From Limnospira fusiformis SAG 85.79 (GTDB lineage: Bacteria; Cyanobacteriota; Cyanobacteriia; Cyanobacteriales; Microcoleaceae), in the NCBI RefSeq assembly GCF_012516315.1, contig NZ_CP051185.1:3413363-3477362 (forward strand): a DNA stretch of 64,000 bases, written 5' to 3'. The position numbers and the translations under genes were made by a program. The first letter of the stretch is position 1, and every line of letters begins with the position of its first letter. The notes beneath the pieces were generated by a model. It did not search any database, was not told where the DNA came from, and saw only the letters and a program-made list of their open reading frames with translations. Below, in pieces: positions 43,799-56,626 of this stretch.

Positions 43799-44932
43799 TT
43801 ACGCGACATTTTTCCGGTTGTTCCCGGACAATGCAACGATAGCACTATTACCCGTTAAGGTAACAGAGGCGGTATCCCGCAAAGCTTTTAGAAAGATTCC
43901 AAAAGCACCGTTCCAGTCCCTAGGTAGAGTGAACCCACACTCCGGACATCGGAACACTTTTGAGCCACCTAGCTGGGAATGCACATGACCACAGTGAGTA
44001 CAGGTTTTGCTGGTGTATTCTTCCGTCACATCTACAACTGTGGTTCCAGTTATTTCCCCTTGATGTCTCAGGGTTAGTTTGAATCGATAATGCGCCCATG
44101 TCAGCATGGCGCGGGCAGTCTTAGACCTGATTAGACGCTTCACCTTGGCAACCATATCGGAAGTCTCGAAGGTGGGCAAAAAAATTAGGCTGTAGTTGTG
44201 AGTCAAGTAGTGAGCAATTTGTTTGTGGGCTTCATCAACTAGATTGCGGATTTTGGTTCTCATTCGTTGAGCCGCTTGCCTCATCCGTCGCCTCCTTGAA
44301 CGACAGGGTTCCTTGGCGATTCGGCTCATTAAATCATCCAAATGTTGACATAGCCTAGTAATGCGTCCAATATCCCCGGAGCCCAATTCCAGAAATCGTG
44401 AACCATCAAACCCGGTTATGAAAGTTCGCACACCCGGGTCTAATGCAATCACGCCAGTAGCGTCAGTTGGGGTAACGGCAACTGGTTCAGGGAAAATCGC
44501 CAACCATCGACCTTTGGTAAACACCAACTGAGTCCCTTGCCCGCAAGTTTTAGGGATGGGTTCGGAAACCATGAAAGTTAATCCTTTCGTGAGTCTTGGA
44601 TACCAACTCCCTGAAGAGAAATTAGCATCGTTAAACTTGATGGCTTGAGAACTATCCCGACAGCTCCTAAACCTTGCGCCAGGACTGGCTGAAAAGGCGA
44701 GATAGGCATCAAAGATAGCATTCTGCCGAATGTGGCAGGGTGTTTCTTTGACCCATGCAGGCAAGTCGCTCTGCATCACTTCGTTGCGTAATTTCAGTTT
44801 GCTTAGTCGTTTACCACTCCGGGATAATGCAATTGCTTGGTTGTAGCAATACCGACAAGCGGCCAACCATTTGCGCCAGACTTGATTTAGCTCGGGGCTG
44901 GGGTAAATCCGGATCTTCTTTGACCTGAGTTT
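43799..44932 (-). CDS. tnpB: TnpB (OrfB_IS605, RuvC-like + zinc ribbon) of the IS607-like element
   Basis: KIRIYPSPELNQVWRKWLAACRYCYNQAI N-terminus; RuvC motifs; C-terminal CTHCG...CPECG zinc finger. No canonical ATG at the expected start, so translation may be coupled to the tnpA frame. Confidence 0.75.
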   Translation of the reverse strand, partial: KLRSKKIRIYPSPELNQVWRKWLAACRYCYNQAIALSRSGKRLSKLKLRNEVMQSDLPAWVKETPCHIRQNAIFDAYLAFSASPGARFRSCRDSSQAIKFNDANFSSGSWYPRLTKGLTFMVSEPIPKTCGQGTQLVFTKGRWLAIFPEPVAVTPTDATGVIALDPGVRTFITGFDGSRFLELGSGDIGRITRLCQHLDDLMSRIAKEPCRSRRRRMRQAAQRMRTKIRNLVDEAHKQIAHYLTHNYSLIFLPTFETSDMVAKVKRLIRSKTARAMLTWAHYRFKLTLRHQGEITGTTVVDVTEEYTSKTCTHCGHVHSQLGGSKVFRCPECGFTLPRDWNGAFGIFLKALRDTASVTLTGNSAIVALSGNNRKNVA

Positions 44933-45480
44933 TGTATTTACTCCGTCCGTATAATCGGGAACTGAAGCAGTGGAGGATGGCGAGGATGTCCTCAACCATT
45001 TCTGGTTCTGGACTGAGACTTGTCTGGTTGAGAACCATGAGTGAACACCTGTTTTGCTCACAGAGCCATCGAAACAAGTCAAATCCCCATATTGCCAATC
45101 AGTCTTTGTGGGCAACGACAACCATGCCGACATCTCCTGACAAATGATGTCCCAGTAAGGCCAGCATTTTCTTTCCCTTGAAGTTGAGCCCGCCTCGGAT
45201 TTCTGAGACGACTTCTGCTTCGGGGTAGAGGTTGGACAGTGCGGCCACCTGTCGGTTGAGGTCTGACTGCTGGGCGCGGCTACTAACTCTGGCATAGATA
45301 ACGACTTTGCGTTTGTCACTGCCTGATTTGGCAGCAGTATATCACTCAACGTTGTATCGTCGTTGCCCAGCGGGGGTTCTGATGGTCTCGATTGAGCCAT
45401 TGTCGTCCCATCTGCGGAGTGTTCTTTCATGGACTCCAAGGATTTGGGTGGCTTCCTTGGGTTTGACATATCTGGCAATA
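44811..45480 (-). pseudogene. tnpA: IS607-type serine recombinase tnpA, disrupted
   Basis: Frame B reads ...RRYNVE*YTAAKSGSDKRKVVIYARVSSRAQQSDLNRQ...VVVAHKD*. It then shifts to the 95-aa ORF RLARFGFDLFRWLCEQ...ILHCFSSRLYGRSKYK (resolvase catalytic Ser in YARVSS). Confidence 0.7.
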
Positions 45481-46079
45481 GGTTTATCCTCAACCCTTCT
45501 CGCTTATTATACTGTATTGCCCTAAAATATTAACCGAATTTGTGATTAAATCATGCTCTCTCCACGCTAAAGCAACGGAGATTCGGGAATGAACCAAAAG
45601 TTCTCACAGGCGTAGTCAAAGCGCCCCTATAGGTAGCCATAAGGCTTCCCTTTACTTTTTTTCGATGTCCCTTTTGCCTCTCGCCGATGAAACCACTTTG
45701 CTACCGACATTTCTGCATTATGCAAGTCTGCCCTCACGGGATGTTAAGCCCCTTTCATTCGGGTCTTAGAGAAGGCAGTTATATGATACCATAGCACCCG
45801 CCGGCGTAAGCACGCCTGTCGCTTTTCCTCCCCGTTAAAGAGACGGGGCTACCAAGCCACCGAGCTTTCAGCGTGTTGAGATCTTAAAACTTCCAGCAGT
45901 AGCCGTGGTGCAACCCACAGAATCAATCGTCCGGTATGATGACTTATCCGCAGTCCCCACAGCGGGTTTAGGCATAACCCAAACAAATCTTACCCAAAAA
46001 TTCCCTGAGCAACTACCCTTGTTTTGACGCTCCCCGCTCTAAATAGACGGGGATTCTTCATTCATAGACTTGCCATAAT

Positions 46080-47099
46080 TTAGCAGGATTTCTCCAACCA
46101 AACTAGAGGGCAAATCTCTGAAGCTTGAGATTTGGTGCGCCCCACCATACTTAATCCTTTTGGCAATATGTTTAAAGCAGCGTTTCTATCACGGAAGTCT
46201 GTATATCTGCAATGAGGGCAGACATGAGTGCGAGTAGATAACGACTTTTCTACCCTTTGGTCACAATTAGAACAATTCTGAGAAGTATTATGGGGTGGAA
46301 CAGCAATAACCAATTTGCCATACTTATCCCCAAAATACCCTCGCCATCGTTTAAAAGTAGCCCATCCTGCATCGGTTATCGACTTGGCTAAACGATGATT
46401 TATAACCATACCTCGAACATTCAAGTCTTCACAAACTACCAAACCGTTAGATTGGACTAAACGGAGTGCCACGCTTTTGACAAACTCTTCTCGCTGTCTG
46501 CTTACTCTTAAATGTTTTTTGGCCTAAGGAGTTAAAGGGGTTATGGTATCTCTAGGATCTAATTTTATGGAGAATTGAACATAATATCCATCTGCTTGTC
46601 TAATAATCCTCACTCGCTTAATCTGTTCAGGCTGATAGTAATTAATATCCCTAGAGCCGATCAGCTTGAGCTTACCAATACCTTTTTGGTCGGTAAAAGT
46701 GATCTGCCGTTTATTGTCTGATAGTTTCCATCCAGAGACTTTATATTCTACCGAACGAGAATGTTTTTTGAATCTTGGATACCCCTTCTTCCCCTTGACC
46801 TGGTTTTGGCAATTCTCGTAAAAACGAGTAATGGCACCGAGAACCCTTTCAACTGTCGTTTGACAAGCATGATAGTTTAAATCCTTGACCAAATCAAACA
46901 CCTTCCGCAGTGCTGTGTTGCATCGAAATAAGTCAACCTTACCTATGCCACGATTGTCCATCCAATAACGAAGCACCTTATTGCCGACAAACTGTGCTGT
47001 CCGTATTGCTTCATCAATGGCTTCGACTTGATGTGGCTTGGGTTGGACTTTGTATTCGATCACCAACATTTTGACACTGTACGCGCTGGTATCAGCCAT
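46080..47099 (-). pseudogene. second tnpB (IS605/IS1341-type), internally deleted (RuvC-I region missing) and split
   Basis: The 191-aa N-terminal part (MLVIEYKVQPKP...) and the 130-aa C-terminal part (VVCEDLNVRGM...NTSQNCSNCDQ...HVCPHCRYT) are only 52 bp apart, so ~70 aa including the GIDxG motif are absent. A CGCGGGTT-AA-AACCCGCG hairpin at 47118..47140 resembles an IS200/605 end structure. Confidence 0.7.
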
Positions 47100-47409: not shown

Positions 47410-48051
47410 TTACAGTTCCAGAACAGCAACCACTAGCCTGTAACATAGAAGCTGATCATCAGAATTCCGCTTTTTCCAAGGTTGAGAAAGGCTAAGAACC
47501 ACCAGACATTCAGGACTTAAAATATAGTCATTGTCTAGTTTAGTACAAAGCTCTGGATCAGTCACGTTTAAGACCAAGCTGTTACCGCCCTCTAAAGGAA
47601 TTTCCCCTTTCCACTTCCCGTAATTATTGCACCAAGTTTTAAACCCGTCAACCTTGACTATTTGTAATGTACGTCTTTGATGGCGAGGCAATGAAGATAT
47701 GTATGAATAGGGGATAGCATTCAGCCAATCATGACAATGACTATGAATAATTTCATCATCACAATAACAAACTACGTCCATAGGGCTAACTCTGCCAATG
47801 TGCTTCCAGGAACCCCTTAAAATCAGTCTATTCTCGTATTCATATCCATTTCCTGTATCACTTAGAGGTATATCAACGATATCCAGAGGTTGGATAAGCC
47901 TTCCATTAATCTGAGACATATTTACCGGAATGCGACCATCATCCAATCTAGTCACAGGACGAACCCATTTACCTGTAGATATTTCTATCCCAGCAATACA
48001 ACGGTCATTGTTCTTCCGAGAATTAGCAAGACAAATTAATTTTGACATCAT
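47410..48051 (-). CDS. hypothetical Cys/His-rich protein (N-terminal MMSKLICLANSRKNNDRCIAG)
   Basis: 213-aa ORF, 9 bp downstream of the DUF488 gene. Contains a CYCDDEIIHSHCHDW cluster. Confidence 0.5.
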   Translation of the reverse strand: MMSKLICLANSRKNNDRCIAGIEISTGKWVRPVTRLDDGRIPVNMSQINGRLIQPLDIVDIPLSDTGNGYEYENRLILRGSWKHIGRVSPMDVVCYCDDEIIHSHCHDWLNAIPYSYISSLPRHQRRTLQIVKVDGFKTWCNNYGKWKGEIPLEGGNSLVLNVTDPELCTKLDNDYILSPECLVVLSLSQPWKKRNSDDQLLCYRLVVAVLEL

Positions 48052-48060
48052 CCTTACGAC

Positions 48061-48540
48061 TTATAGGTGATGAATGTTTATATTTCCCCATTTTTGGTTT
48101 AAGTATTCAGCAACTAAGCGACGATGACAGTTATGAGGTTTAGCCTCACTGCAAAGCAAACAGGCTCCATGAGCTAAATCTGGGGACAGTTTTTTTTCGA
48201 TTTGACGCTCCTCCATCAGCGTTAAAAATTTCTGCTCGTATATCGACCAATCTCCTTTTTTCTTTTTGTACTCATCAAGAATATCTTTGGTGGGAGCCAA
48301 GTCTAAAATATGCACATAATCAATATCGTTGATAGTTTTCAAGAAATACTCTAAGTCGGCTCTTTTAGCGAATCCCGCCAATTGAGATACGTTATTTAGG
48401 CGAGTGTCTATAACTGTCTTAACACCTGCTTTTTTAAGAGTTTCAAAGAAATTTTGTGCGCTCTTTTTAGTGAAACCTATGGTGAATAAATCAACCTTAT
48501 TTTTCATGGCTATTATCCGGTTCGACATAAGCAATCTCAT
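48061..48540 (-). CDS. DUF488 family protein
   Basis: DLFTIGFTKKSAQNFFETLKKAGVKTVIDTRLNN ... LLCSEAKPHNCHRRLVAEYL are both DUF488 hallmarks. Confidence 0.65.
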   Translation of the reverse strand: MRLLMSNRIIAMKNKVDLFTIGFTKKSAQNFFETLKKAGVKTVIDTRLNNVSQLAGFAKRADLEYFLKTINDIDYVHILDLAPTKDILDEYKKKKGDWSIYEQKFLTLMEERQIEKKLSPDLAHGACLLCSEAKPHNCHRRLVAEYLNQKWGNINIHHL

Positions 48541-49129
48541 CCCCCTGAAGTCGATAAGCTTGGCTCAAGCATTCTTCTCTTGTCGGTAAAATTTGGGGGG
48601 AAAATAGGGAAAGCTGAACTTCTTGTGAATCGCCAAAATCCCTAAAACCATGCTTGACAAGCATTCTATCTTCCAAATGCTCATGAGATTCTAAATCACC
48701 ATTCTTGAGGATGTGATTTATAGGGATATCCAAATCCCGTAAGTGCTGACAGACCAAGATGGCTCTGTGACAGGTTAATGGATCTTTTTCAGCACACATC
48801 AGCGAAATCTTATGTTTTTTCAAACCTTTCTGAAGTCGCTTAATTCCTTGGTGAAACGCATCTGTGAGGGCAATTCTTTCATATACGGCTTTACCATTGA
48901 TATAGCAGTCGGGGTTACTAGGTCTTGCACCCAGTTCCCGTCCCAGAAAAACATATTGAATTCCCTCTTTAGCGAGAAACTCTTGTAGGGATGAGCGATT
49001 GAAATGTGACAAGAATCGGCTGTAGGGATGTGAACGTACATCAGCAACAGCGGTTACTTGATGCTTTTGGAGCAGGGAGATAAAAGCATCTATCTCATGA
49101 TTAGAGTGACCGATACTGAATAACTCCAT
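48497..49129 (-). CDS. DUF488 family protein (long form with C-terminal extension)
   Basis: MELFSIGHSNHEIDAFISLLQKHQVTAVADVRSHPYSR ... LMCAEKDPLTCHRAILVCQHL. Overlaps the next gene by 44 nt. Confidence 0.65.
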   Translation of the reverse strand: MELFSIGHSNHEIDAFISLLQKHQVTAVADVRSHPYSRFLSHFNRSSLQEFLAKEGIQYVFLGRELGARPSNPDCYINGKAVYERIALTDAFHQGIKRLQKGLKKHKISLMCAEKDPLTCHRAILVCQHLRDLDIPINHILKNGDLESHEHLEDRMLVKHGFRDFGDSQEVQLSLFSPQILPTREECLSQAYRLQGDEIAYVEPDNSHEK

Positions 49130-49315
49130 GCTGCTCCTCTGTTGTTACCTAGTCATACCATCTTATATAGTAGGGTTCATCCAGGTATATGAACCGTGGT
49201 TATTATGATAGTACAGACGCGCTTGGCTTGTCAATCTTAACCAGTTTCCCAATCAGGTAGAGGGGGGATATCTAACTATTCATCAGACAAGGGCAACTCA
49301 GCACAACTGCGATCG

Positions 49316-49390
49316 CCCTATCCCATAACCCCTATGCCATAGGCCATAACCCATAACCCCTATCCCATAACCCCTATGCCATAGGCCAAT
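49316..49390. repeat. short tandem repeat (CCCATAA / CCCCTAT[C/G]CCATAGG units)
   Basis: cccataacccctatgccataggccataacccataacccctatcccataacccctatgccatagg; STRR-like heptamer-based repeats. Confidence 0.6.
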
Positions 49391-49557
49391 TATCCCCCGG
49401 ATTAGCTTCCCAGGGAAAAGCGATCGCTTCTGCAAACATTAACGGGGAGGTGGAGGCGAAAATTGCCCCCAATGTATTCGCACACGCAGCAGGATTTTGG
49501 CACTGGGGAGTTGATAACCCGTAACTACCCCAACGCCCAGGGCTATAATTATCCCGA

Positions 49558-50023
49558 TCAACCCCCGATCGCCACAAACGCAGCCCAGTAGTAAGGAGAT
49601 GAAAAAGGTTGACTCTCGGATTTTTTGCCCCATTGCAAGGTAAATTTCATCTGCTCCTGCCATTTCGGTGCAATCGCCGGACAACTATCAATCCAGTCTA
49701 ACAAATTTTGCACTGTGGCTTCTCGCAGCCATTTCTGAGTCTGCTGCAACGCCGGAGCCACTGATGAATTAGGCTGCTGGTGGAGAATTTCATAAAAGCG
49801 AATCATTAAGATGGCAGTGGATAAATCATGTACACTCCACAGGGAGCAGACCACATTAGCAGAACCCGCCAAAAGAAATCCACTGGCTAAACTGATATAT
49901 TCATCGGTTTGGTCAACGGCGACTTGTCCAGTTTCAGAGGCGGAAAGGGTTACAAGGCGGCAGTTGCTCAGGTTCAGTTGGGTGATGATTTGTTCTAGGG
50001 GATTGGTGACAACTTAAGGCTAG
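49558..50023 (-). pseudogene. C-terminal fragment of a CHAT-domain (caspase-like) protease, N-terminus deleted
   Basis: Reads VVTNPLEQIITQLNLSNCRLVTLSASETGQVAVDQ...LLAGSANVVCSLWSVHDLSTAILMIRFYE...SPYYWAAFVAIGG. These are CHAT C-terminal signatures, but Ser replaces the usual catalytic Cys in SAC-E-T. Confidence 0.65.
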
Positions 50024-50473
50024 AGTGTAATTGTCAAGCTACTTTCGACAGCAGTTTGATGGAATGAGTCGTCCTCGCAAAAACAACCCAGATCATACTC
50101 GCCGCCACAATATGCCAGGGCCAAGTAGCGACGCGATTAAAGCCCACCTGAGCGACTTGTTGAGACCTGTGGTTCACGAGCAATTGAAATACTATCGCCA
50201 GTTGGGGTTGCGCTAACGAATTGTGGGGCTTCCTCTAATGGTGGCAGCAGTGTTGAGCCTGTTATGGCCTCAAAATGTGGGATCTCAAACCTTTCCATCC
50301 AAACCTCTAGCAACCTCTGAAAAAAACTGGGAGTTCCAACCAAGAAACCCCAGCTTTTTCCTTGTCTTCAAAAATGTGATCGCCCTGATCTGTAGTCTGT
50401 CTGAAACGTCCCTGCATCATGACCCAGCCTACTATTGATCACCATGACCCACAGGAAGCCATATCTGCGCAAA

Positions 50474-52471
50474 CTAGCGAATGTACTTTTTAAGAATACT
50501 ATTGCGATCGGAATGGCGGAGTTTACGCAACGCTTTAGCCTCAATTTGGCGAATGCGTTCGCGAGTCACATTAAAAATTTTGCCGATTTCTTCAAGAGTT
50601 TTCATCCGCCCATCATCGAGCCCGTAACGAAGTCGCAGGATATCCCGTTCACTGGGGCTTAATGTATCTAAGACACTTTCAAGATCTTCGCGCAACAACT
50701 TTTTAGAGACTTGAGCTTCAGGGGTTTCACCATCAGATTCAATGAAATCCCCCGGCTCTGGCTCTTCGGTAGGTGGGGGCGGTTCCTCAACTACAGAGGA
50801 GGATTCCAACTGTTCCGCATACTCTATATATGCTCCTCCCAATGACCTTAAAACCTGAGCCGTTACCCGGGCAAAAGCGATCGCATTCCCCTGAACTTCC
50901 CCTTCCCCTAACTGTTGCGGATTTCTCAAAATCGCCCCAAAATCTTCTACCGCAAAGCCCAAATTCCTCGCCACATAACCAGAAATCTCATCAATCACCC
51001 TCACCGTCTCATCCACCGGCATCAACTCTAACAATAACTCCCGGACTCCCGGCATAAAATCATATTGCACCAACTCTGGGTCAGTATCGATATTAATCTC
51101 CGATATCGGCTGCAATAACCCACCCAAAAACACCTCCGCTACATGGACTGGCAACGACTCTTTTAACAAATTTTCCTGAATCAACCGCACCACAGGTAAG
51201 GTAATCACAGGGGCTGCCGCCAACAACCCGGCTAATTTCCGCCCTACCCGAGAAGCCGTTGCCCGAAACCCGTTTACCCGCTTTTCCGCCGTCAATTCTC
51301 CCCCAGAATTGGGTCTGCGCCTCCGTCCTTGATGTTCTGCACACTTAAATAGATATCCTGCCGCCCAAACTTTACCTTTCCCCGCCAATAATCGCGCCCA
51401 AGTCCCTACGGATTCCGGTTCTAAGGTAAAAATCGGCACTTTCACCACCGAATGAGCCACTTCCTCATCCCACCACAAGGGGAATTCATCAACCTTTAAA
51501 TTCTGATTCCAATCTCCGGGATTGAGTCCCTGTAACCTCACCAACGCTTCCCAACCTAAACCGCTTCTTTTCCACATCCATTCAGGCAGCATCTGCAAAA
51601 TAGCCATCGACCCCCGTTTCGCCCACAGGTCTAAAATGGGAGTCATTTTCCCCTCTCGCCACACTTTCGAGACACAATCACTCACCACAATCACTAACCG
51701 TCGCCCAGTGGGGTCGATTAATTCCTTGGGACTGCGAGGGGCTTGATGTTTCGCCGTTGCCCCAATCCCCCGCCGAATTTTGACCGCTTCCGGGTTATCG
51801 GTGAGCAAACTCCAAACTCGGACATCTCGGAAAATTCCATAGTTCTTGAGGAGTTTTTCTAAGTCTCGCAGGGTATGCCGCCACAGCAACATCGAGAGGG
51901 AATCCTCAATCACTAAATCTAAGTCTAACCAAGGTTCTAGGCGAGGTTTTAAAACCGGAATCCAAATCCCTTGGCTGGCAATTTGTTCGCTAGTGGCGAC
52001 TTCATCAATCACCCAATCTCGTCCCCCAGAAACTCGACGCATCAGGGGTTTTAAGGCTCTGGCTAAGGTCAGAGGTTCCCGGAGTGAGGGGGCATCGGAA
52101 ACTCGAATGGGTAAACCCCCTCCACCCGCAGCGGTTTGACTGGGTTCCGGTTTAGGGACAATTTCCCCTTGGGGCGGTTGGGGGGTTGCTGGGGTAGCAG
52201 GGGCAGGAGGTTGGTTTTCTGGGAGATTCTCTGGAGGGGTTGTGGCGGAATCCTCTGGGGTAGGGGGTTGAGGGGCTGGTTCTGTGGGCGGTTGGGATGA
52301 ACTGCTGCTGTCGGTGGGGGGTTCAGCCCCAGGAGAAGCACTGGCTTCCTCTGGGGGGGTTACAGATTCAGAATATTGGTCAATGTGGCAAGCCAGCCAA
52401 AAGACATCCGCAATATCTTGGGCGGAGAGTTGAAATTCCTGTTGTAAGGCTTGAACCAAGTCGGGATTCAT
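50474..52471 (-). CDS. MoxR-associated protein: Pro-rich N-terminal linker, possible vWA-like middle region, C-terminal sigma-70 region 3.2-4 module
   Basis: The last ~95 aa ([92 protein letters not shown]) are near-consensus group 1/2 sigma region 3.2 + 4.2. The start ATG overlaps the MoxR stop (ATGA). Confidence 0.6.
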
Positions 52472-53553
52472 TAGTCTTCTGAACTGTTCAGATACTTCAT
52501 TAAGATTGTTACCAAATCTTGCTCGTCGCTGACTTCCGGTTTTAAGTCTCGCGTCACCATATAAATGGCATTTAAGAGTTGGTCGGTGGCGAGGTCTCCC
52601 TGGCTGCGACGCTTGATAAACTGGTCGATGAGTTGATTAATTTTTGCGGGGTTTTGGGTGAGGCTATCTTCCCCTAAATGGGCTTCGACAATTTCTTTTA
52701 AGGCGGTAGAATTGGGTTGATAGGGCATGGATAGTCTTAAACAACGCCGGAGAAAAGCTGGGGGAAAATCCCGTTCTCCATTGTTGGTGAGGATAATCAA
52801 GGGAAAGTTACAGCAGCGAATTTTCCCATTTTGGACGGGAACTGAAATTCCATCAGCGGTGGTGACTTCGACTTGATTTTGCTCTGGGCTAATGCGGGCG
52901 AGTTCGGGAATGGGGAATTCCCCTTCTTCAAATAGGTTGAGGAGGTCGTTGGGGAGGTTGATGTCACTTTTATCAATCTCATCGATGAGTAGAACTCTGG
53001 GACGATGAGCGGGTAAGAGGGCGGTTCCTAATGGACCGAGGGTGATGTAACGACCGATATCTTTACTTTGGTCGCCCATTTGAACGTCCTGGAGACGGGC
53101 GATCGCATCATAACGATAGAGTCCATCTTGCAAGGTGGAACGAGCGGTAATATACCACGGCAACACCGGACCCAGTTTCAATTCGTAAGCCACCGCATAG
53201 GCTAAGGAGGTTTTCCCCGTTCCCGGTTTCCCGGTTACTAACAGGGGTCGCCTCAGATATAAGGCAGCATTGACCATATTCACCACCCGATTTTGCTCCT
53301 GGGTCTCAGGGCTATGAATCCGAAAACTTTTCCCCCGTTTTTGGTCGCGAGTTTCCGAGTCCAAAGTCTGTAAAAAATCGTTCCAGCGGCTGGCAATTTC
53401 TGCCACCAAACTCTCTTCTACTCCCGTAAACTGTCGCCAACTCGGAGGCGGCGGCAATTTCTCAATCCCATCATGGGGGTCATGATTTCCTTGAAAGATT
53501 TTCCAGGTGTTCATAGGGTTAGGTGGGTTATTCTCCGGGTTGCATGAGTTCAA
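52471..53553 (-). CDS. MoxR-type AAA+ ATPase (AAA_5)
   Basis: Walker [16 protein letters not shown]; Walker [12 protein letters not shown]; sensor regions; ~100-aa N-terminal extension. Confidence 0.8.
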
Positions 53554-55681
53554 TCATCATCTCAGGGGTGAGACGATAAGGGTCTTCCCAGAGAAAGCCT
53601 AAATGACATCCGAGATGATCGGGTCCATTTCCTCGGGATTGCGATCGCAGTTCTTGGACTGACTCCGTTAACTGACGCAAAGGGCGACAGGTGAGGAGTT
53701 GATTGATACTCTCAGCATAGTTGGAATTGGCATCAGGGCATCGGGGCCAAAGGGCGATCGGTGTTGCTGCTTGTAACATGGCTTTGACTAAAACCTGGAA
53801 CTGCTCAGAGGCGGTGGGACAAGTCAGCTTTAAGCCTATTTTCTGGGTTAATTGGTGGGGCAGTTGCCGAGAGTTGAAGCTGTGGAGGTCTTCTAGGCTC
53901 TCAAAACTTTCTAACGGGGGATATTGGTCTAAAATCTGGCTGACTTTCCCCCAGTTTTCATACCACTGATTGAGGTAATTGTCAAGATAATCGAGATTTA
54001 ATCGTTCAAGCGATCGCACTCGCAGTCCGTACCTCATTCCCCAACAAAATTCACTATCAATGGGGTCAAATTCTAATTGCCATTGGTCAACTTCGGTACT
54101 GAGAAACTCTTGGGGCAAAAACACTTCAATAGTTAAATGATACCGCTTTCCTCTCAGCAACTTTAAGGCTTTTCTGAGACATTGATTTAACACACTCTGA
54201 ATCTCCGCCTGAGTACAACTTAACCCATATTCCCCAGGTTCATCTAACAGCGGCTTAAACGCGGTATTGGGGTCATTTTGGATTAAGGAATTATCCTTCA
54301 CTAGCCAAGCCTTGACGATGAATTGCTCAGACTTTTTCTGGGACTCCACAGTAACCAGCACATAAGACTCTAAGGGATGGGGTAAATTATCGGCTTCTTT
54401 CTGGGATGTCTGATTTTCCAATAAGTTTAAGAATTTATCTAAGCATTGATACCGCAAAATCTGGGTCAAGCTGCTGAGTTCAGAAGGTGAAAATTTATCC
54501 TCTAAAATAGCATCATCTGGTAATTCAGTATGGGCAAACTCTATGACATCTTTATCATAACCAATACCCTGCAATATTTGAAGAATTTGTTGCGATATCC
54601 CTTCAAAATTCATAGGTTTTCTATCTTCAAACATCCCAGGAATGGGGAGGATAGTCGATGATTTTAATAGAGTTTTGATTTCCTCAATCCCTTGATTGGC
54701 TTGGTCAACCCCGGCTTGAAGTTCTTCAAGTTGCCAGGGAATGCTCTGTAAAATCTCTCGAATACTGCCATAACTCGACTCAAGGCTTGCGGAAATCTCT
54801 CGCAGGGTTTGCCGTTGTTGTTCTTCGCTAACCTCCTTAAGTTTACCCTGTAAGTCATCAAAATGTTGTTGGATTTTGGCAAACTCTAGAATCTGATAGG
54901 CTTGACTGGCTTCGCCGTCATTTTTGAGTTGCAGTAATTGGCTTAAAACACTTCCAAACTGAGTATTTTGCTGTTCATTTAGCCCAGCCAAGTCAGTCTG
55001 CAACCTGGTCAGTAAATCCAACATTAACCCCGCGAAAGCCTTACCATCTTCGGCAAAATCTTCCTTGAGGGTTTGACGGAAGGCTTGGGGGAACTCATCA
55101 TAAAGCAATTCGGAGACTGTGGCAGAAACTCCATCAGGAAACTGAAATCCTCCACCCGGACAGGCTTCCATATTCAGCCGTCTAAAAATATCTTGCCAAT
55201 CTTCCAGTTCCAGGATTTCATCACCCTTTGGAATCAGGATATCTGGGAGTTTACCCTCACCAAGTTCTGGGTATCTTTCCGATTCTCCTGTCTCTTCATT
55301 TAGCCAACGACTCCATAAATCTACCCATTTGTCGGGGGTGATTTCGGCAATCTTCAGAAGATGGTGACGAGTCTTTCTATCATGCTTAAACTTAGGGACG
55401 GCTTTATCGGTAATAATGGCGGCGATCGCTTTGCCAACGGCTTGAATTAAATCCTGGTTTTTTAAAGAAACCCCAGGATGTCCGGTGGTGGCATCCCCTA
55501 ACTCATTCGCCACATTTCCGGCTATAACTGAGCCAATAGCCTTGCAAGTTTCTCCCAAAAACTCTTGAGCCTCTGGGTTCGAGAGTAACCCCACGACACC
55601 CAAGGCTGGGGGGAATGTGCAGGTTGCAACATAGCAGGCTCCAAATACTCCCAGCCGATAGAGGGTCTTTTTGACCGCCAT
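53528..55681 (-). CDS. large uncharacterized protein (717 aa, central coiled coil), first gene of the MoxR operon
   Basis: Long ORF overlapping the MoxR start by 26 nt. Central heptad-rich region; no motif I can name. Confidence 0.5.
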   Translation of the reverse strand: MAVKKTLYRLGVFGACYVATCTFPPALGVVGLLSNPEAQEFLGETCKAIGSVIAGNVANELGDATTGHPGVSLKNQDLIQAVGKAIAAIITDKAVPKFKHDRKTRHHLLKIAEITPDKWVDLWSRWLNEETGESERYPELGEGKLPDILIPKGDEILELEDWQDIFRRLNMEACPGGGFQFPDGVSATVSELLYDEFPQAFRQTLKEDFAEDGKAFAGLMLDLLTRLQTDLAGLNEQQNTQFGSVLSQLLQLKNDGEASQAYQILEFAKIQQHFDDLQGKLKEVSEEQQRQTLREISASLESSYGSIREILQSIPWQLEELQAGVDQANQGIEEIKTLLKSSTILPIPGMFEDRKPMNFEGISQQILQILQGIGYDKDVIEFAHTELPDDAILEDKFSPSELSSLTQILRYQCLDKFLNLLENQTSQKEADNLPHPLESYVLVTVESQKKSEQFIVKAWLVKDNSLIQNDPNTAFKPLLDEPGEYGLSCTQAEIQSVLNQCLRKALKLLRGKRYHLTIEVFLPQEFLSTEVDQWQLEFDPIDSEFCWGMRYGLRVRSLERLNLDYLDNYLNQWYENWGKVSQILDQYPPLESFESLEDLHSFNSRQLPHQLTQKIGLKLTCPTASEQFQVLVKAMLQAATPIALWPRCPDANSNYAESINQLLTCRPLRQLTESVQELRSQSRGNGPDHLGCHLGFLWEDPYRLTPEMMIELMQPGE

Positions 55682-55971
55682 ATCCTGCTCCGTCTAACTC
55701 ATGGACTGATTCTACCAGAAACCGCCTAGAAATCTGATGTCTGGGGTCATGGTTTTCTGGGATTTTTGATTCCACCGGATTAACCTTCTGCTGCTGTCTG
55801 GGAATTCTTGTGCCGCTAGGCTTGACAGGTGCTGCCAAGCCATGATACTATATCTATGTACAGTTTCATAATTGAGATATTTATTCTTTAAAAAAAATTA
55901 GCAATATTCCCATTATGTAAAAGTATAGCCCAGGTTTCCCAAAAAAGCAAGGAACCCCCCCAGAAAAAAAA

Positions 55972-56008
55972 TTTTCGTAACATTTCGTAACATTTCGTAA
56001 CATTTCTT
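55972..56008. repeat. 10-bp direct repeat TTTCGTAACA x3.5 in the divergent promoter region
   Basis: ttttcgtaacatttcgtaacatttcgtaacatttc sits between the MoxR operon start (55681, minus) and the redoxin gene (56075, plus). Confidence 0.8.
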
Positions 56009-56074
56009 TACAGAAGTTAACATAATTATGAATTACATTGATAGCTAATCAAGCAGAGTAGATATGAGATTGAG

Positions 56075-56626
56075 ATGATGCTAACTTCCAATGACTTTAG
56101 TGGGTTACTGAATCAAAGATTTTTCCGAAACTTTTTACCCATTCCGGCGACTGGGACTTTACACTTAGGGAAAAAGACCCCAGACTTTGAATTACCAGAC
56201 ATCACGAATAATGGGAAAGTGCGTCTGTCTGAATACCGAGGTAATACGCCTGTTATTCTGGCGTTTACGCGAATTTTTACGGAAAAGCAGTATTGTCCCC
56301 TATGCTACCCCCACATAAAAGCTCTCAATGAAAATTATGCAGCTTTTGTGGAGCGTGGCGCTGAAATATTGATGATTACCAGTACAGACACAGCACAAAG
56401 CCAGACCGTGGTTAAAGATTTAGGTCTAAAAATGCCGTTGTTAAGTGATTCTAGCTGTGGTATTTTCCGACTTTATCATGTAGGTCAAGCCTTGGGCGCA
56501 CCTCTTCCGGCTCAATTTGTTTTAGACCGTGAGGGAATCTTACAATATCGCCATTTATTTTCGTTTCTTGAACCCAATGCGACAGTCCCTAAACTGCTGA
56601 GTGTTCTGGATGAACTAGCTAATTAA
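56075..56626 (+). CDS. AhpC/TSA-redoxin family thiol-disulfide oxidoreductase
   Basis: Thioredoxin-fold with a CPLC motif; GNTPVILAFTRIF... Confidence 0.65.
   Translation: MMLTSNDFSGLLNQRFFRNFLPIPATGTLHLGKKTPDFELPDITNNGKVRLSEYRGNTPVILAFTRIFTEKQYCPLCYPHIKALNENYAAFVERGAEILMITSTDTAQSQTVVKDLGLKMPLLSDSSCGIFRLYHVGQALGAPLPAQFVLDREGILQYRHLFSFLEPNATVPKLLSVLDELAN

What the first reader, a model, noticed from the sequence alone, without database searches (positions are those of the whole stretch)
49558..56075. Three-gene MoxR operon with a sigma-70-domain output and a CHAT protease remnant: candidate ternary NTP-dependent conflict/signalling system
The three genes are translationally coupled: the 717-aa gene overlaps the MoxR start by 26 nt, and the MoxR stop overlaps the next start as ATGA. 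The MoxR AAA+ ATPase carries canonical Walker A and B motifs. The third gene encodes a 665-aa protein whose middle might be a degenerate vWA-like region ([13 protein letters not shown] is only a loose DxSxS candidate). MoxR ATPases are canonically partnered with vWA proteins, and MoxR/vWA/third-protein ternary systems with CHAT or trypsin effectors have been described as conflict systems in multicellular cyanobacteria. That part is established knowledge. Here the 665-aa protein ends in a sigma-factor region 3.2-4 module, and a truncated CHAT fragment lies immediately downstream (49558..50023). The island is bounded by IS debris and a DUF488 cluster. I do not recognise the 717-aa partner. The sigma-domain fusion suggests a transcriptional or RNAP-targeting readout rather than a purely proteolytic effector.
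Basis: partly seen in the sequence, partly recalled or inferred. Interest (0 to 1): 0.85.

Follow-up and report, generated by a model that had tools for sequence, protein, structure and literature searches.

The report
VMAP defence operon with sigma-factor decoy
This is a standard three-gene VMAP/MoxR/vWA conflict (probable anti-phage) operon of the filamentous cyanobacterium Limnospira, unusual only because the variable tail of its vWA protein has been swapped from a TPR-caspase module to a copy of the last 92 residues of the housekeeping sigma factor.

Summary
The three co-oriented, tightly packed genes are real. They form a textbook VMAP-ternary system as defined by Kaur, Burroughs, Iyer and Aravind (eLife 2020).

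- **717-aa protein:** this is the VMAP (Pfam VMAP-C, E 1.5e-33).
- **Middle gene:** a MoxR AAA+ ATPase carrying the two N-terminal motifs specific to this system.
- **665-aa protein:** this is the vWA component (NCBIfam SAV_2336_NTERM, E 9e-145).

The order VMAP→MoxR→vWA is conserved in every related cyanobacterial locus I could test.

The sigma part is only the C-terminal half of region 3.2 plus region 4 of the primary sigma factor SigA, at about 88% identity. It lacks regions 1-3, so it cannot be a sigma factor.

Comparison with sister Limnospira/Arthrospira strains shows a 753-nt cassette (sigma fragment plus its own 3' UTR). This cassette replaced the TPR array and most of a CHAT domain that used to be the tail of the same gene. 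The "CHAT remnant" is the stranded 3' end of that old tail.

An independent SigA-region-4 fusion occurs in another cyanobacterial VMAP system.

The most likely role is a mimic of host sigma region 4. It would act as bait for invader proteins that target sigma, or as a dominant-negative module. This is inferred, not shown.

Verdict: a new member of a known kind, of moderate interest.

The parts
53528..55681 (-). VMAP gene (717 aa), first gene of the operon. Residues 1-311 are an all-alpha N-terminal module shared with the N-termini of cyanobacterial NACHT proteins. Residues 328-706 are the VMAP middle and C-terminal domains.
   Evidence: Pfam VMAP-C PF20028 E 1.5e-33, residues 453-701. Residues 1-311 are 40% identical to Limnospira indica NACHT protein P0253. 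Residues 328-706 are 68% identical to the Laspinema CHAT-VMAP protein P0252.
53579..54325 (-). VMAP-C domain coding region (residues 453-701 of the VMAP)
   Evidence: Pfam PF20028, 117 bits against a cutoff of 27.
52471..53514 (-). MoxR-type AAA+ ATPase. The probable start is the ATG at 53514 (347 aa). The ORF is open to the TTG at 53553 (360 aa).
   Evidence: Pfam AAA_5 and AAA. Walker A GKPGTGKT, Walker B VLLIDE, and the VMAP-system-specific N-terminal motifs WKIFQG (WxhapG) and PSWRQF (PsWRxa) (motifs defined in PMC7159879). ATG start supported.
50753..52471 (-). Constant part of the vWA component (residues 1-573). It comprises an N-terminal helical extension, a Pro/Ser-rich disordered linker (about residues 34-131), the vWA-like core (about 150-395, with EDSLS at 189-193 and SDC at 264-266) and the helical/winged-helix linker domain vWA-L (about 395-560).
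   Evidence: NCBIfam NF041121 SAV_2336_NTERM E 9.1e-145, residues 17-505. 498 homologues carry the effector repertoire described for VMAP systems: FGS, GUN4, Roc-COR, caspase, NACHT, EAD10. AF2 model. hhalign to a bona fide VWA domain gives E 0.0011.
50477..50752 (-). Sigma module: the last 92 residues of the vWA protein (574-665), running [12 protein letters not shown]...LKKYIR. This is the C-terminal half of sigma region 3.2 plus all of region 4 of a group-1 (SigA-type) sigma factor.
   Evidence: Pfam Sigma70_r4 E 8.7e-20. NCBIfam PRK07406 E 7e-53. Aligned end-to-end with the C-termini of solved cyanobacterial SigA chains 8h3v_G, 8gzg_F and 9dvs_G. Foldseek top hit is Synechocystis SigA.
50001..50753 (-). 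Allele-specific 753-nt cassette: the sigma module, its stop codon and 473 nt of 3' non-coding DNA. It replaces the TPR array and the N-terminal two thirds of CHAT found in sister strains.
   Evidence: blastn homology to A. platensis C1 stops at 50754 and resumes at 50000. The cassette is 100% identical in L039, L043 and L044. It has no match elsewhere beyond generic rpoD coding similarity.
50330..50351 (-). Terminator-like hairpin followed by a T-run, about 120 nt downstream of the vWA-sigma stop and inside the cassette.
   Evidence: Pattern scan. This is a consensus match only; the number of such sites in the region is not above the shuffled expectation.
49558..50016 (-). CHAT (caspase-like) relic: the C-terminal about 150 residues of the displaced former arm. 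It has no start codon and no catalytic His segment, and carries Ser at the Cys position (LSASETG).
   Evidence: Pfam CHAT E 1.3e-15, profile positions 221-288 of 289. Stops lie immediately upstream. It aligns with the end of the 582-aa CHAT ORF of A. platensis C1 (87.8% nt identity, dN/dS 0.8). P0275 shows vWA-TPR-CHAT as one ORF.
55682..56074 (.). Divergent intergenic region between the peroxiredoxin gene (+) and the VMAP gene (-). It is presumably the operon promoter region and contains a perfect 10-nt tandem repeat, TTTCGTAACA x3.4, at 55973..56006.
   Evidence: Sequence. Tandem Repeats Finder. Promoter-like hexamers on the minus strand at 56052..56025 and 55869..55842 (not above chance).

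Best explanation
The locus is a VMAP-ternary conflict system: VMAP, then a MoxR AAA+ ATPase, then the vWA component, transcribed as one operon. It sits in a Limnospira/Arthrospira chromosome, in a small defence island.

**Shown**
- The vWA protein has a constant front (vWA core plus linker domain) and an exchangeable C-terminal arm.
- In this allele the arm is a 92-residue copy of the C-terminal end of the primary sigma factor (the C-terminal half of region 3.2 plus region 4).
- That copy arrived as a 753-nt cassette. It displaced a TPR-CHAT arm and left the CHAT 3' end stranded downstream.
- The fragment lacks regions 1-3, so it cannot bind core RNAP productively or melt promoters. It is not a sigma factor.

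**Inferred mechanism**
- The module acts as a tethered mimic of host sigma region 4, that is, as bait.
- Invader proteins that seize sigma region 4 would bind it, as phage AsiA, gp39 and gp67 do in other bacteria.
- That binding is coupled through the vWA-MoxR chaperone pair (ATP-dependent remodelling) to the VMAP.
- The VMAP's N-terminal all-alpha module is shared with NACHT proteins of the same genomes. It then executes or relays the response, probably by homotypic assembly.
For: **Identity of the system**
- VMAP-C is present.
- MoxR carries the WxhapG and PsWRxa motifs.
- The 665-aa protein matches SAV_2336_NTERM at E 9e-145.
- Gene order and tight spacing fit the definition.
- MoxR lies directly upstream of the vWA homologue in all 24 genome loci that include upstream DNA.
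- The ORF upstream of MoxR carries VMAP-C in 10 of 10 loci tested.
- Homologues carry exactly the cyanobacterial arm domains listed by Kaur et al.: FGS, GUN4, Roc-COR, caspase, NACHT.

**Arm swap**
- Flanks are 99.8-100% identical to A. platensis C1, but homology breaks at 50754 and resumes at 50000.
- The protein junction is ...TEEPEP|GDFIES here against ...EEPEP|EENQQT(TPR) in sister alleles.
- P0275 is a single vWA-TPR-CHAT ORF.

**Mimicry**
- The module aligns end to end with solved cyanobacterial SigA C-termini, with 81 of 92 residues identical to 8h3v_G by my count from that alignment; the -35 recognition helix [16 protein letters not shown] is intact.
- The same SigA segment was fused independently, at a different junction, in another VMAP system: P0009/P0010, locus L040, which has EAD10-VMAP, MoxR and vWA-sigma4.
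- Sigma region 4 (with region 3.2 for AsiA) is the documented target of phage sigma-remodelling proteins (PMC7403470).

**No protease to release the arm**
- The VMAP N-terminus is not a peptidase.
- The CHAT is a dead relic.
- This favours a tethered binding role.

**Published models**
- A decoy or dominant-negative role for host-derived arm domains was proposed for this system class (PMC7159879).
- An arm-as-sensor model was also published (PMC10907252).
Against: - There is no functional evidence of any kind.
- No cyanophage protein that binds SigA region 4 is known to me.
- The cassette is invariant in all copies seen, so selection on it cannot be measured.
- One strain carrying the same allele has a frameshift in the vWA gene (L043). 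The arm swap left debris. Both facts are also compatible with a decaying locus.
- The module carries 7-8 substitutions at positions invariant in three solved SigAs, including Arg to Ser in LSPRERD and HPN to HSD in the C-terminal tail. Its binding properties may therefore differ from the host sigma's.
- The function of the VMAP N-terminal module is unknown (pLDDT 56, no fold match).
Confidence: 0.45

Rival explanations
1. The system is the same, but the sigma module is the effector rather than the sensor. The VMAP (its variable middle domain) senses the invader. MoxR then remodels the vWA protein so that the sigma 3.2/4 fragment is exposed or released. The fragment competes with full-length sigma factors for the RNAP beta-flap and RNA-exit channel, or for -35 elements. 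This shuts down -10/-35 promoter transcription and aborts the infection: a dominant-negative, RNAP-targeting output.
For:
- The module keeps the whole of region 4 plus the part of region 3.2 that lies in the RNA exit channel, and has an intact recognition helix.
- Region 4 alone is an autonomous folding unit that has been crystallised on its own or with partners (PDB chains 1tty, 1ku3, 4g6d).
Against: - No peptidase is available in this locus to release the arm.
- A 92-residue fragment tethered to a 570-residue protein would compete poorly with holoenzyme-bound sigma.
- Arg to Ser in LSPRERD affects the position I recall as the E. coli R554 DNA-backbone contact. That equivalence is from memory and was not tested here.
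Confidence: 0.3
2. The sigma arm has no function. The cassette is the by-product of an illegitimate recombination that truncated the TPR-CHAT arm. This allele would then be a crippled or decaying VMAP system, hitch-hiking in a clonal Limnospira lineage.
For: - A stranded CHAT relic and 473 nt of orphan non-coding DNA remain.
- One complete genome carries a 1-nt frameshift in the vWA gene.
- The cassette is 100% identical in all copies, so no purifying selection can be demonstrated.
- The first MIDAS Asp is replaced by Glu.
- None of the best 149 family representatives aligns into the sigma arm; the only listed match covering that region is the 166-aa fragment of this same allele.
Against: - The junction is in frame and sits exactly at the linker where all alleles switch modules.
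- The 665-aa ORF is intact here, in L039 and in L044, and the allele occurs on at least 20 further contigs.
- VMAP and MoxR remain intact, with dN/dS of 0.11-0.49.
- An independent fusion of the same SigA segment exists in a different VMAP system.
- The Glu substitution is shared with the TPR-CHAT alleles.
Confidence: 0.17
3. The protein gives a genuine transcriptional output. The tethered region 4 binds -35-like DNA, or recruits RNAP, as an activator or repressor of specific genes once the system fires. This resembles the ECF-type sigma fusions seen on other conflict proteins.
For: - The recognition helix is intact.
- Other vWA components of this family carry more complete ECF-like sigma domains with region 2 (P0047, P0088).
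- ECF-like HTH effectors are described on bacterial TRADD-N conflict proteins (PMC8195603).
Against: - Regions 1.2-3.1 are absent.
- Region 4 alone binds -35 DNA weakly and cannot initiate transcription (established knowledge of sigma-70 architecture).
- The module is a copy of the housekeeping sigma, so it would have no private regulon.
Confidence: 0.05

Closest known systems
VMAP-ternary (vWA-MoxR-VMAP) conflict systems of multicellular bacteria (Kaur, Burroughs, Iyer & Aravind, eLife 2020, PMC7159879)
   Same: - The gene order is VMAP, then MoxR, then vWA.
- VMAP-C is present.
- MoxR has the two N-terminal aromatic/Arg motifs.
- The vWA component has an N-terminal helix, a disordered linker, the core and a C-terminal helical extension.
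- The C-terminal arm is hypervariable and differs between close strains.
- The host is a filamentous cyanobacterium.
- The arm is built from a partial or inactive copy of a host protein.
   Different: - A primary-sigma region 3.2/4 fragment as the arm is not mentioned in that paper's text (0 occurrences of 'sigma') or in the supplementary text held here.
- The VMAP N-terminus is none of the listed peptidase, nucleotide-signal or Pfam EAD domains. It is a roughly 230-310-residue all-alpha module shared with NACHT proteins.
- No peptidase partner is present.
Sister alleles of the same locus in Arthrospira platensis C1, A. platensis PCC 7345, Limnospira indica, and P0275
   Same: - The chromosomal position and flanking genes are the same.
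- Against A. platensis C1, the constant genes VMAP, MoxR and the vWA front are about 96% identical at the nucleotide level over the stretches compared; against PCC 7345 they are 88-91%. The sister vWA proteins are 87-95% identical over the shared front.
   Different: Their vWA arm is TPR repeats plus a full CHAT domain. Here 753 nt carrying the sigma fragment replace it.
Plant NLR 'integrated decoys' and host-mimic baits in immune receptors
   Same: By inference only: a fragment of a host protein that pathogens target is fused to an NTPase-controlled immune scaffold, so that attack on the target is detected.
   Different: - The proteins are unrelated (AAA+ MoxR/vWA rather than NB-ARC-LRR).
- No experimental evidence exists here.
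- The analogy is functional only.
MzaA, the sigma-70-family component of the MZA anti-phage system (PADLOC / NCBIfam NF041931)
   Same: A sigma-70 region 4 lies at the C-terminus of a large defence-associated protein. PADLOC MzaA matches residues 582-663.
   Different: - The match is confined to region 4: 102.7 bits against a family cutoff of 800.
- The rest of the protein and the partner genes are unrelated. It is not a member.
Sigma-70 family sigma factors (group 1 SigA/RpoD)
   Same: The last 92 residues are about 88% identical to the SigA C-terminus (81 of 92 to 8h3v_G, my count).
   Different: Regions 1.1-3.1 and the N-terminal half of 3.2 are absent. The fragment is fused behind a vWA scaffold.

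Membership tests
VMAP-ternary conflict system (Kaur et al. 2020) | Three co-directional core genes in the strict order VMAP, MoxR, vWA | tested here: met
   The ORFs lie at 55681..53528, 53514(53553)..52471 and 52471..50474 on the minus strand. There is a 13-nt gap (or 26-nt overlap) between the first two and a 1-nt overlap between the last two. The same order is found in related loci.
VMAP-ternary conflict system (Kaur et al. 2020) | Third component carries the VMAP-C domain | tested here: met
   Pfam PF20028 E 1.5e-33, 117 bits against a cutoff of 27, residues 453-701.
VMAP-ternary conflict system (Kaur et al. 2020) | MoxR-clade AAA+ ATPase with a unique N-terminal region bearing WxhapG and PsWRxa motifs | tested here: met
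   WKIFQG (17-22), PSWRQF (37-42), Walker A and Walker B. Pfam AAA_5 and AAA. Motif definitions come from PMC7159879. MoxR-clade placement by phylogeny was not done.
VMAP-ternary conflict system (Kaur et al. 2020) | vWA component: family membership of the constant N-terminal 500-560 residues | tested here: met
   NCBIfam NF041121 SAV_2336_NTERM at 483 bits against a cutoff of 200. Homologues carry the published arm repertoire.
VMAP-ternary conflict system (Kaur et al. 2020) | The core of that component has a von Willebrand A fold with a MIDAS site | tested here: inconclusive
   - The AF2 model has mean pLDDT 63, and residues 147-190 are below 50.
- Pfam VWA models do not hit the core.
- hhalign of a 234-sequence core profile against a bona fide VWA domain gave E 0.0011 and probability 20%, aligning the beta1-DxSxS and beta4-TDG positions.
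- This clade has EDSLS in place of DxSxS.
VMAP-ternary conflict system (Kaur et al. 2020) | Hypervariable C-terminal effector arm that differs between close relatives | tested here: met
   Sister proteins 87-95% identical over the shared front (protein level) carry a sigma fragment, TPR or TPR-CHAT. More distant relatives carry FGS, GUN4, Roc-COR, caspase, NACHT or EVE.
VMAP-ternary conflict system (Kaur et al. 2020) | VMAP N-terminus is a peptidase, a nucleotide-signal enzyme or an effector-associated domain (EAD) | tested here: inconclusive
   There is no Pfam peptidase, cyclase, TIR or EAD hit. The N-terminal about 310 residues are instead shared with the N-termini of NACHT proteins, including one elsewhere in a Limnospira genome. 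That distribution is EAD-like, but the domain is not a described EAD. It has no fold match.
VMAP-ternary conflict system (Kaur et al. 2020) | Host with a multicellular or filamentous habit | tested here: met
   The locus is 98-100% identical to Limnospira/Arthrospira records. That these are filamentous cyanobacteria is established knowledge.
Sigma-70 family sigma factor | Region 2 (core binding, -10 recognition and melting) together with region 4 | tested here: not met
   Only residues 562-665 match sigma models. They correspond to the last about 103 residues of SigA, from the middle of region 3.2 onward. There is no Sigma70_r2 or r3 hit.
CHAT / caspase-like peptidase | Complete domain with a catalytic His-Cys dyad | tested here: not met
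   The fragment covers only profile positions 221-288 of 289 and is preceded by stop codons. The His segment (HLYFSCHG in the C1 allele) is deleted. The Cys position reads Ser (LSASETG) both here and in the intact C1 allele. The identity of the catalytic motif is recalled from knowledge of the family.
MZA anti-phage system (MzaA) | Full-length match to the MzaA model, plus MzaB-E partner genes | tested here: not met
   NCBIfam MzaA scores 102.7 bits against a cutoff of 800, over the region-4 portion only. PADLOC matches residues 582-663 only. The neighbouring genes are VMAP and MoxR.

The most novel reading that the evidence does not exclude
The sigma 3.2/4 module is an integrated decoy. It would be a copy of the exact surface of the housekeeping sigma factor that phages seize to reprogram RNA polymerase, wired to an ATP-driven vWA-MoxR-VMAP switch. 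An attempt at sigma appropriation would then trigger defence. This would be a bacterial counterpart of plant NLR integrated decoys. The module could also serve as a ready-made bait for finding the still unknown sigma-hijacking proteins of cyanophages.
Probability: 0.3. Interest if true: 0.7.

Novelty: new member of a known kind. Interest (0 to 1): 0.4.

Why it matters
VMAP-ternary systems are widespread in multicellular bacteria. They are known only from comparative genomics, and no mechanism has been tested.

This locus offers three things.
- **A natural allelic pair in an industrially grown organism (Spirulina).** The flanks are identical and the constant genes about 96% identical (nucleotide level), but the arm is either TPR-CHAT or a sigma region-4 mimic. 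That suits tests of whether the arm is sensor or effector.
- **A direct snapshot of the arm-displacement process.** That process was so far only inferred from architecture comparisons. Here both breakpoints and the stranded relic are visible.
- **A concrete, cheap hypothesis.** The arm would be bait for sigma-targeting invader proteins, which pull-down or two-hybrid assays can test.

If the module proves inert, the locus is just one more variant of a known, highly variable system.

Tried and rejected
1. **Independent proof of the vWA fold.**
 - AF2 with a 53-sequence alignment gave mean pLDDT 63.
 - Foldseek against the PDB returned only sigma factors.
 - A profile search of PDB sequences gave only noise.
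 - The Pfam VWA hits in homologues P0013 and P0021 lie in their arms, not in the core.
 - hhalign gave only weak support.

2. **Donor of the 753-nt cassette.**
 - An exact 25-mer from its terminator found nothing in JGI metagenome contigs.
 - blastn against plasmids and phages found only generic rpoD coding similarity.
 - My guess that the 473-nt spacer holds an IS transposase N-terminus got no Pfam support and is dropped.

3. **dN/dS of the sigma module.** I tried loci L026-L028 as the comparison. They turned out not to be plain sigA genes but NERD-sigma-TPR fusions, so they are not a valid comparator.

4. **Fold of the VMAP N-terminal module.** The model had pLDDT 56, and no PDB match had E below 0.4.

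5. **Literature searches.** Searches for a described sigma arm in VMAP systems, for MzaA, and for a sigma-decoy idea returned nothing usable.

6. **Rejected readings.**
 - A functional sigma factor: region 2 is absent.
 - Membership of the MZA system: the match covers region 4 only.
 - The CHAT remnant as a separate effector gene: it is the tail of the old arm.

Full report
**What is there**

Three minus-strand ORFs occupy 55681..50474:
- a 717-aa ORF at 53528..55681;
- a 360-aa ORF at 52471..53553, or 347 aa from the ATG at 53514;
- a 665-aa ORF at 50474..52471.

The 26-nt overlap between the first two depends on a TTG start. Homologues align only from residue 7-17 onward. Gene callers on identical or near-identical loci use the ATG, which lies 13 nt after the stop of the first gene. 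Either way the genes are packed like an operon.

Promoter and terminator pattern scans found no more sites than shuffled sequence gives. One terminator-like hairpin with a T-run sits about 120 nt after the last stop.

**Identity of the three proteins**

- **717-aa protein.** It carries Pfam VMAP-C (E 1.5e-33, residues 453-701), the signature of the vWA-MoxR-associated protein.
- **Middle protein.** It is an AAA+ ATPase (AAA_5 and AAA) with Walker A GKPGTGKT and Walker B VLLIDE. It also carries the two N-terminal motifs that Kaur et al. describe as unique to MoxR proteins of these systems: WKIFQG (WxhapG) and PSWRQF (PsWRxa) (definitions in PMC7159879).
- **665-aa protein.** It matches NCBIfam SAV_2336_NTERM over residues 17-505 at E 9e-145.

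Its 498 detected homologues share the first about 560 residues. They then diverge into FGS, GUN4, Roc-COR GTPase, caspase, NACHT, EAD10, EVE, TPR and other domains. That is the arm repertoire published for the cyanobacterial vWA component.

The published gene order VMAP-MoxR-vWA is what is seen here. In all 24 related genome loci that include upstream DNA, MoxR directly precedes the vWA homologue. In 10 of 10 loci tested by Pfam, the ORF before MoxR has VMAP-C, with CHAT, EAD1 or EAD9 at its N-terminus.

The locus is therefore a bona fide VMAP-ternary conflict system.

**The vWA question**

The family-conserved DxSxS-like motif sits after a hydrophobic strand at residues 189-193. The consensus is VVDESISM, and it reads VIEDSLSM here and in sister Limnospira alleles.

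I could not confirm the fold independently:
- The AF2 model is mediocre (mean pLDDT 63) and is disordered around the first strand.
- Foldseek found only sigma factors.
- A 234-sequence profile aligned to a bona fide VWA domain at E 0.0011 and probability 20%, matching both motif positions.

Family membership is solid. The fold assignment rests mainly on the literature.

**The sigma part**

Residues 574-665 ([12 protein letters not shown]...LKKYIR) align without gaps to the C-terminal 92 residues of solved cyanobacterial SigA proteins (E 1e-47). By my count from that alignment, 81 of 92 residues are identical to 8h3v_G. The module starts in the middle of region 3.2 and runs through all of region 4. 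The recognition helix [16 protein letters not shown] is intact.

Seven or eight positions that are invariant in the three solved SigAs are changed. Among them are Arg to Ser in LSPRERD and HPN to HSD in the C-terminal tail.

Nothing upstream resembles regions 1-3. By established knowledge of sigma-70 architecture, this fragment cannot function as a sigma factor.

The PADLOC and NCBIfam MzaA hits are confined to region 4 and lie far below the family cutoff.

**Where the sigma part and the CHAT remnant came from**

The window is Limnospira/Arthrospira DNA. The exact 665-aa protein occurs in a Logan assembly. At least 20 further Limnospira contigs carry the same allele, where only a 166-aa piece is annotated.

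Sister strains have the same flanking genes and the same triad: A. platensis C1, PCC 7345 and L. indica. There the vWA gene continues into TPR repeats and a CHAT domain. P0275 shows vWA-TPR-CHAT as a single 1187-aa ORF.

DNA homology to C1 stops at window 50754 and resumes at 50000. So a 753-nt cassette replaces the TPR array and most of CHAT. The cassette holds 276 nt of sigma coding, the stop codon and 473 nt of non-coding DNA with its own hairpin.

At protein level the switch is in frame. It lies exactly at the acidic/proline linker where all alleles change modules...TEEPEP|GDFIES here against ...EEPEP|EENQQT in sister alleles.

The "CHAT remnant" (49558..50016) is the last about 150 residues of the old arm. 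It lacks the His segment. It reads Ser at the catalytic Cys position, as does the intact C1 allele. This agrees with the published observation that most arm-borne caspase domains are inactive.

I could not identify the donor of the cassette.

**Population picture**

- Against C1, the flanking genes are 99.8-100% identical. VMAP, MoxR and the vWA front are about 96% identical (dS 0.06-0.12, dN/dS 0.18-0.49), and the CHAT relic is 87.8% identical. The triad is thus an allelic hot spot in an otherwise near-clonal background.
- Among sigma-allele strains the cassette is 100% identical, while the locus as a whole (window 55996..49300) is 98.1% identical.
- One complete genome has a single-base insertion in the Pro-rich linker. 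This may be a real frameshift or an assembly error.

**Recurrence**

A Nostocales-like metagenomic VMAP system (L040) has EAD10-VMAP, MoxR and a vWA protein. That vWA protein also ends in SigA region 4, but the junction is different (...KTSENQVSKNLLRED). In one variant a STAND-like NTPase follows. This argues for independent capture of the same host segment.

Other members carry ECF-like sigma domains with region 2 (P0047, P0088).

Sigma arms are nevertheless rare. None of the best 149 family representatives at 50% identity aligns into the sigma arm; the only listed match covering that region is the 166-aa fragment of this same allele.

The defining paper does not mention sigma. It speaks only of "different HTH domains".

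**The VMAP**

It is itself a mosaic.
- Residues 328-706 are 68% identical to a Laspinema protein whose N-terminus is a CHAT peptidase.
- Residues 1-311 are 40% identical to the N-termini of cyanobacterial NACHT proteins with multi-pass hydrophobic C-termini. One of these lies elsewhere on a Limnospira indica chromosome, beside toxin-antitoxin genes.

This distribution is what the "EAD principle" predicts for an adaptor or effector domain (PMC8195603). The domain is in no library, however, and has no fold match.

**How it probably works**

Two models are published.
- In Kaur et al., the VMAP senses the invader, MoxR/vWA provide an ATP-dependent threshold, and the arm is deployed as an effector. 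The arm is often an inactive host-protein copy acting as decoy or dominant negative.
- In Doré et al., the arm is the sensor and the VMAP N-terminus is the effector.

For this allele I favour the arm as a tethered mimic of host sigma region 4 that acts as bait. My reasons:
- The fragment cannot initiate transcription.
- It stays close to SigA, and SigA region 4 was captured twice.
- The locus has no peptidase to release the arm.
- Sigma region 4, with region 3.2 in the case of AsiA, is the documented target of phage sigma-remodelling proteins (PMC7403470).

All of this is inference. The dominant-negative reading is nearly as good. A decaying, functionless allele cannot be excluded.

**Verdict**

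But the class is published, and borrowing fragments of host proteins is its stated hallmark.

This is a new member of a known kind. Three points give it some interest: a visible arm-swap event, a recurrent sigma region-4 arm not described in the defining paper, and a testable decoy hypothesis.

Noticed in passing
window 47410..49129 (minus strand): Directly downstream of the CHAT relic lie DUF488 (210 aa), DUF488-N3a (159 aa) and DuOB (213 aa). They match the PADLOC candidate defence system PDC-M45 B/C/A at E 1e-74, 2e-71 and 2e-23. They are 100% identical to A. platensis C1. With the VMAP operon they form a small defence island.
   Followed up: partly
window 46080..47099 and 43799..45493 (minus strand): Two split ORFs (191 aa and 130 aa, the latter with a Cas12f1-like TNB domain) form a broken TnpB/IS605-OrfB gene. 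A neighbouring 564-aa ORF corresponds in position to an intact TnpB in the C1 strain.
   Followed up: no
window 55973..56006: A perfect 10-nt tandem repeat (TTTCGTAACA x3.4) lies in the divergent intergenic region between the peroxiredoxin gene and the VMAP gene. It could be a regulator binding site.
   Followed up: no
window 49316..49383: A 14-nt (7-nt sub-period) tandem repeat, CCCTATCCCATAAC x4.9, lies just beyond the CHAT relic.
   Followed up: no
L026 8396..11311; L028 8378..11278; L027: Chroococcales and Nostoc MAGs encode a protein of about 970 aa. By eye it consists of a NERD-like N-terminal domain, a complete SigA-like sigma factor and a C-terminal TPR array. No domain scan was run on it. 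It is another unusual sigma fusion, unrelated to the VMAP locus.
   Followed up: no
   Followed up: no
window 54749..55681; L045 8001..11129: The first about 310 residues of the VMAP form a conserved all-alpha domain with motifs AGNxAN, SLxNxDLxxAVGKAIAA, WxDIFxRLNM and LKEDFxxDGKAFAGL. It is otherwise found at the N-terminus of cyanobacterial NACHT proteins with hydrophobic C-termini. It is absent from Pfam and has no PDB fold match.
   Followed up: partly
L043 about 8770 (equivalent to window about 52204): The complete genome of Limnospira sp. PMC 1291.21 has a 1-nt insertion (TGTCCCC against TGCCCC) in the Pro-rich linker of the vWA-sigma gene. This frameshifts the gene and leaves only a 166-aa annotated "sigma factor". 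It may be real or an assembly error.
   Followed up: partly
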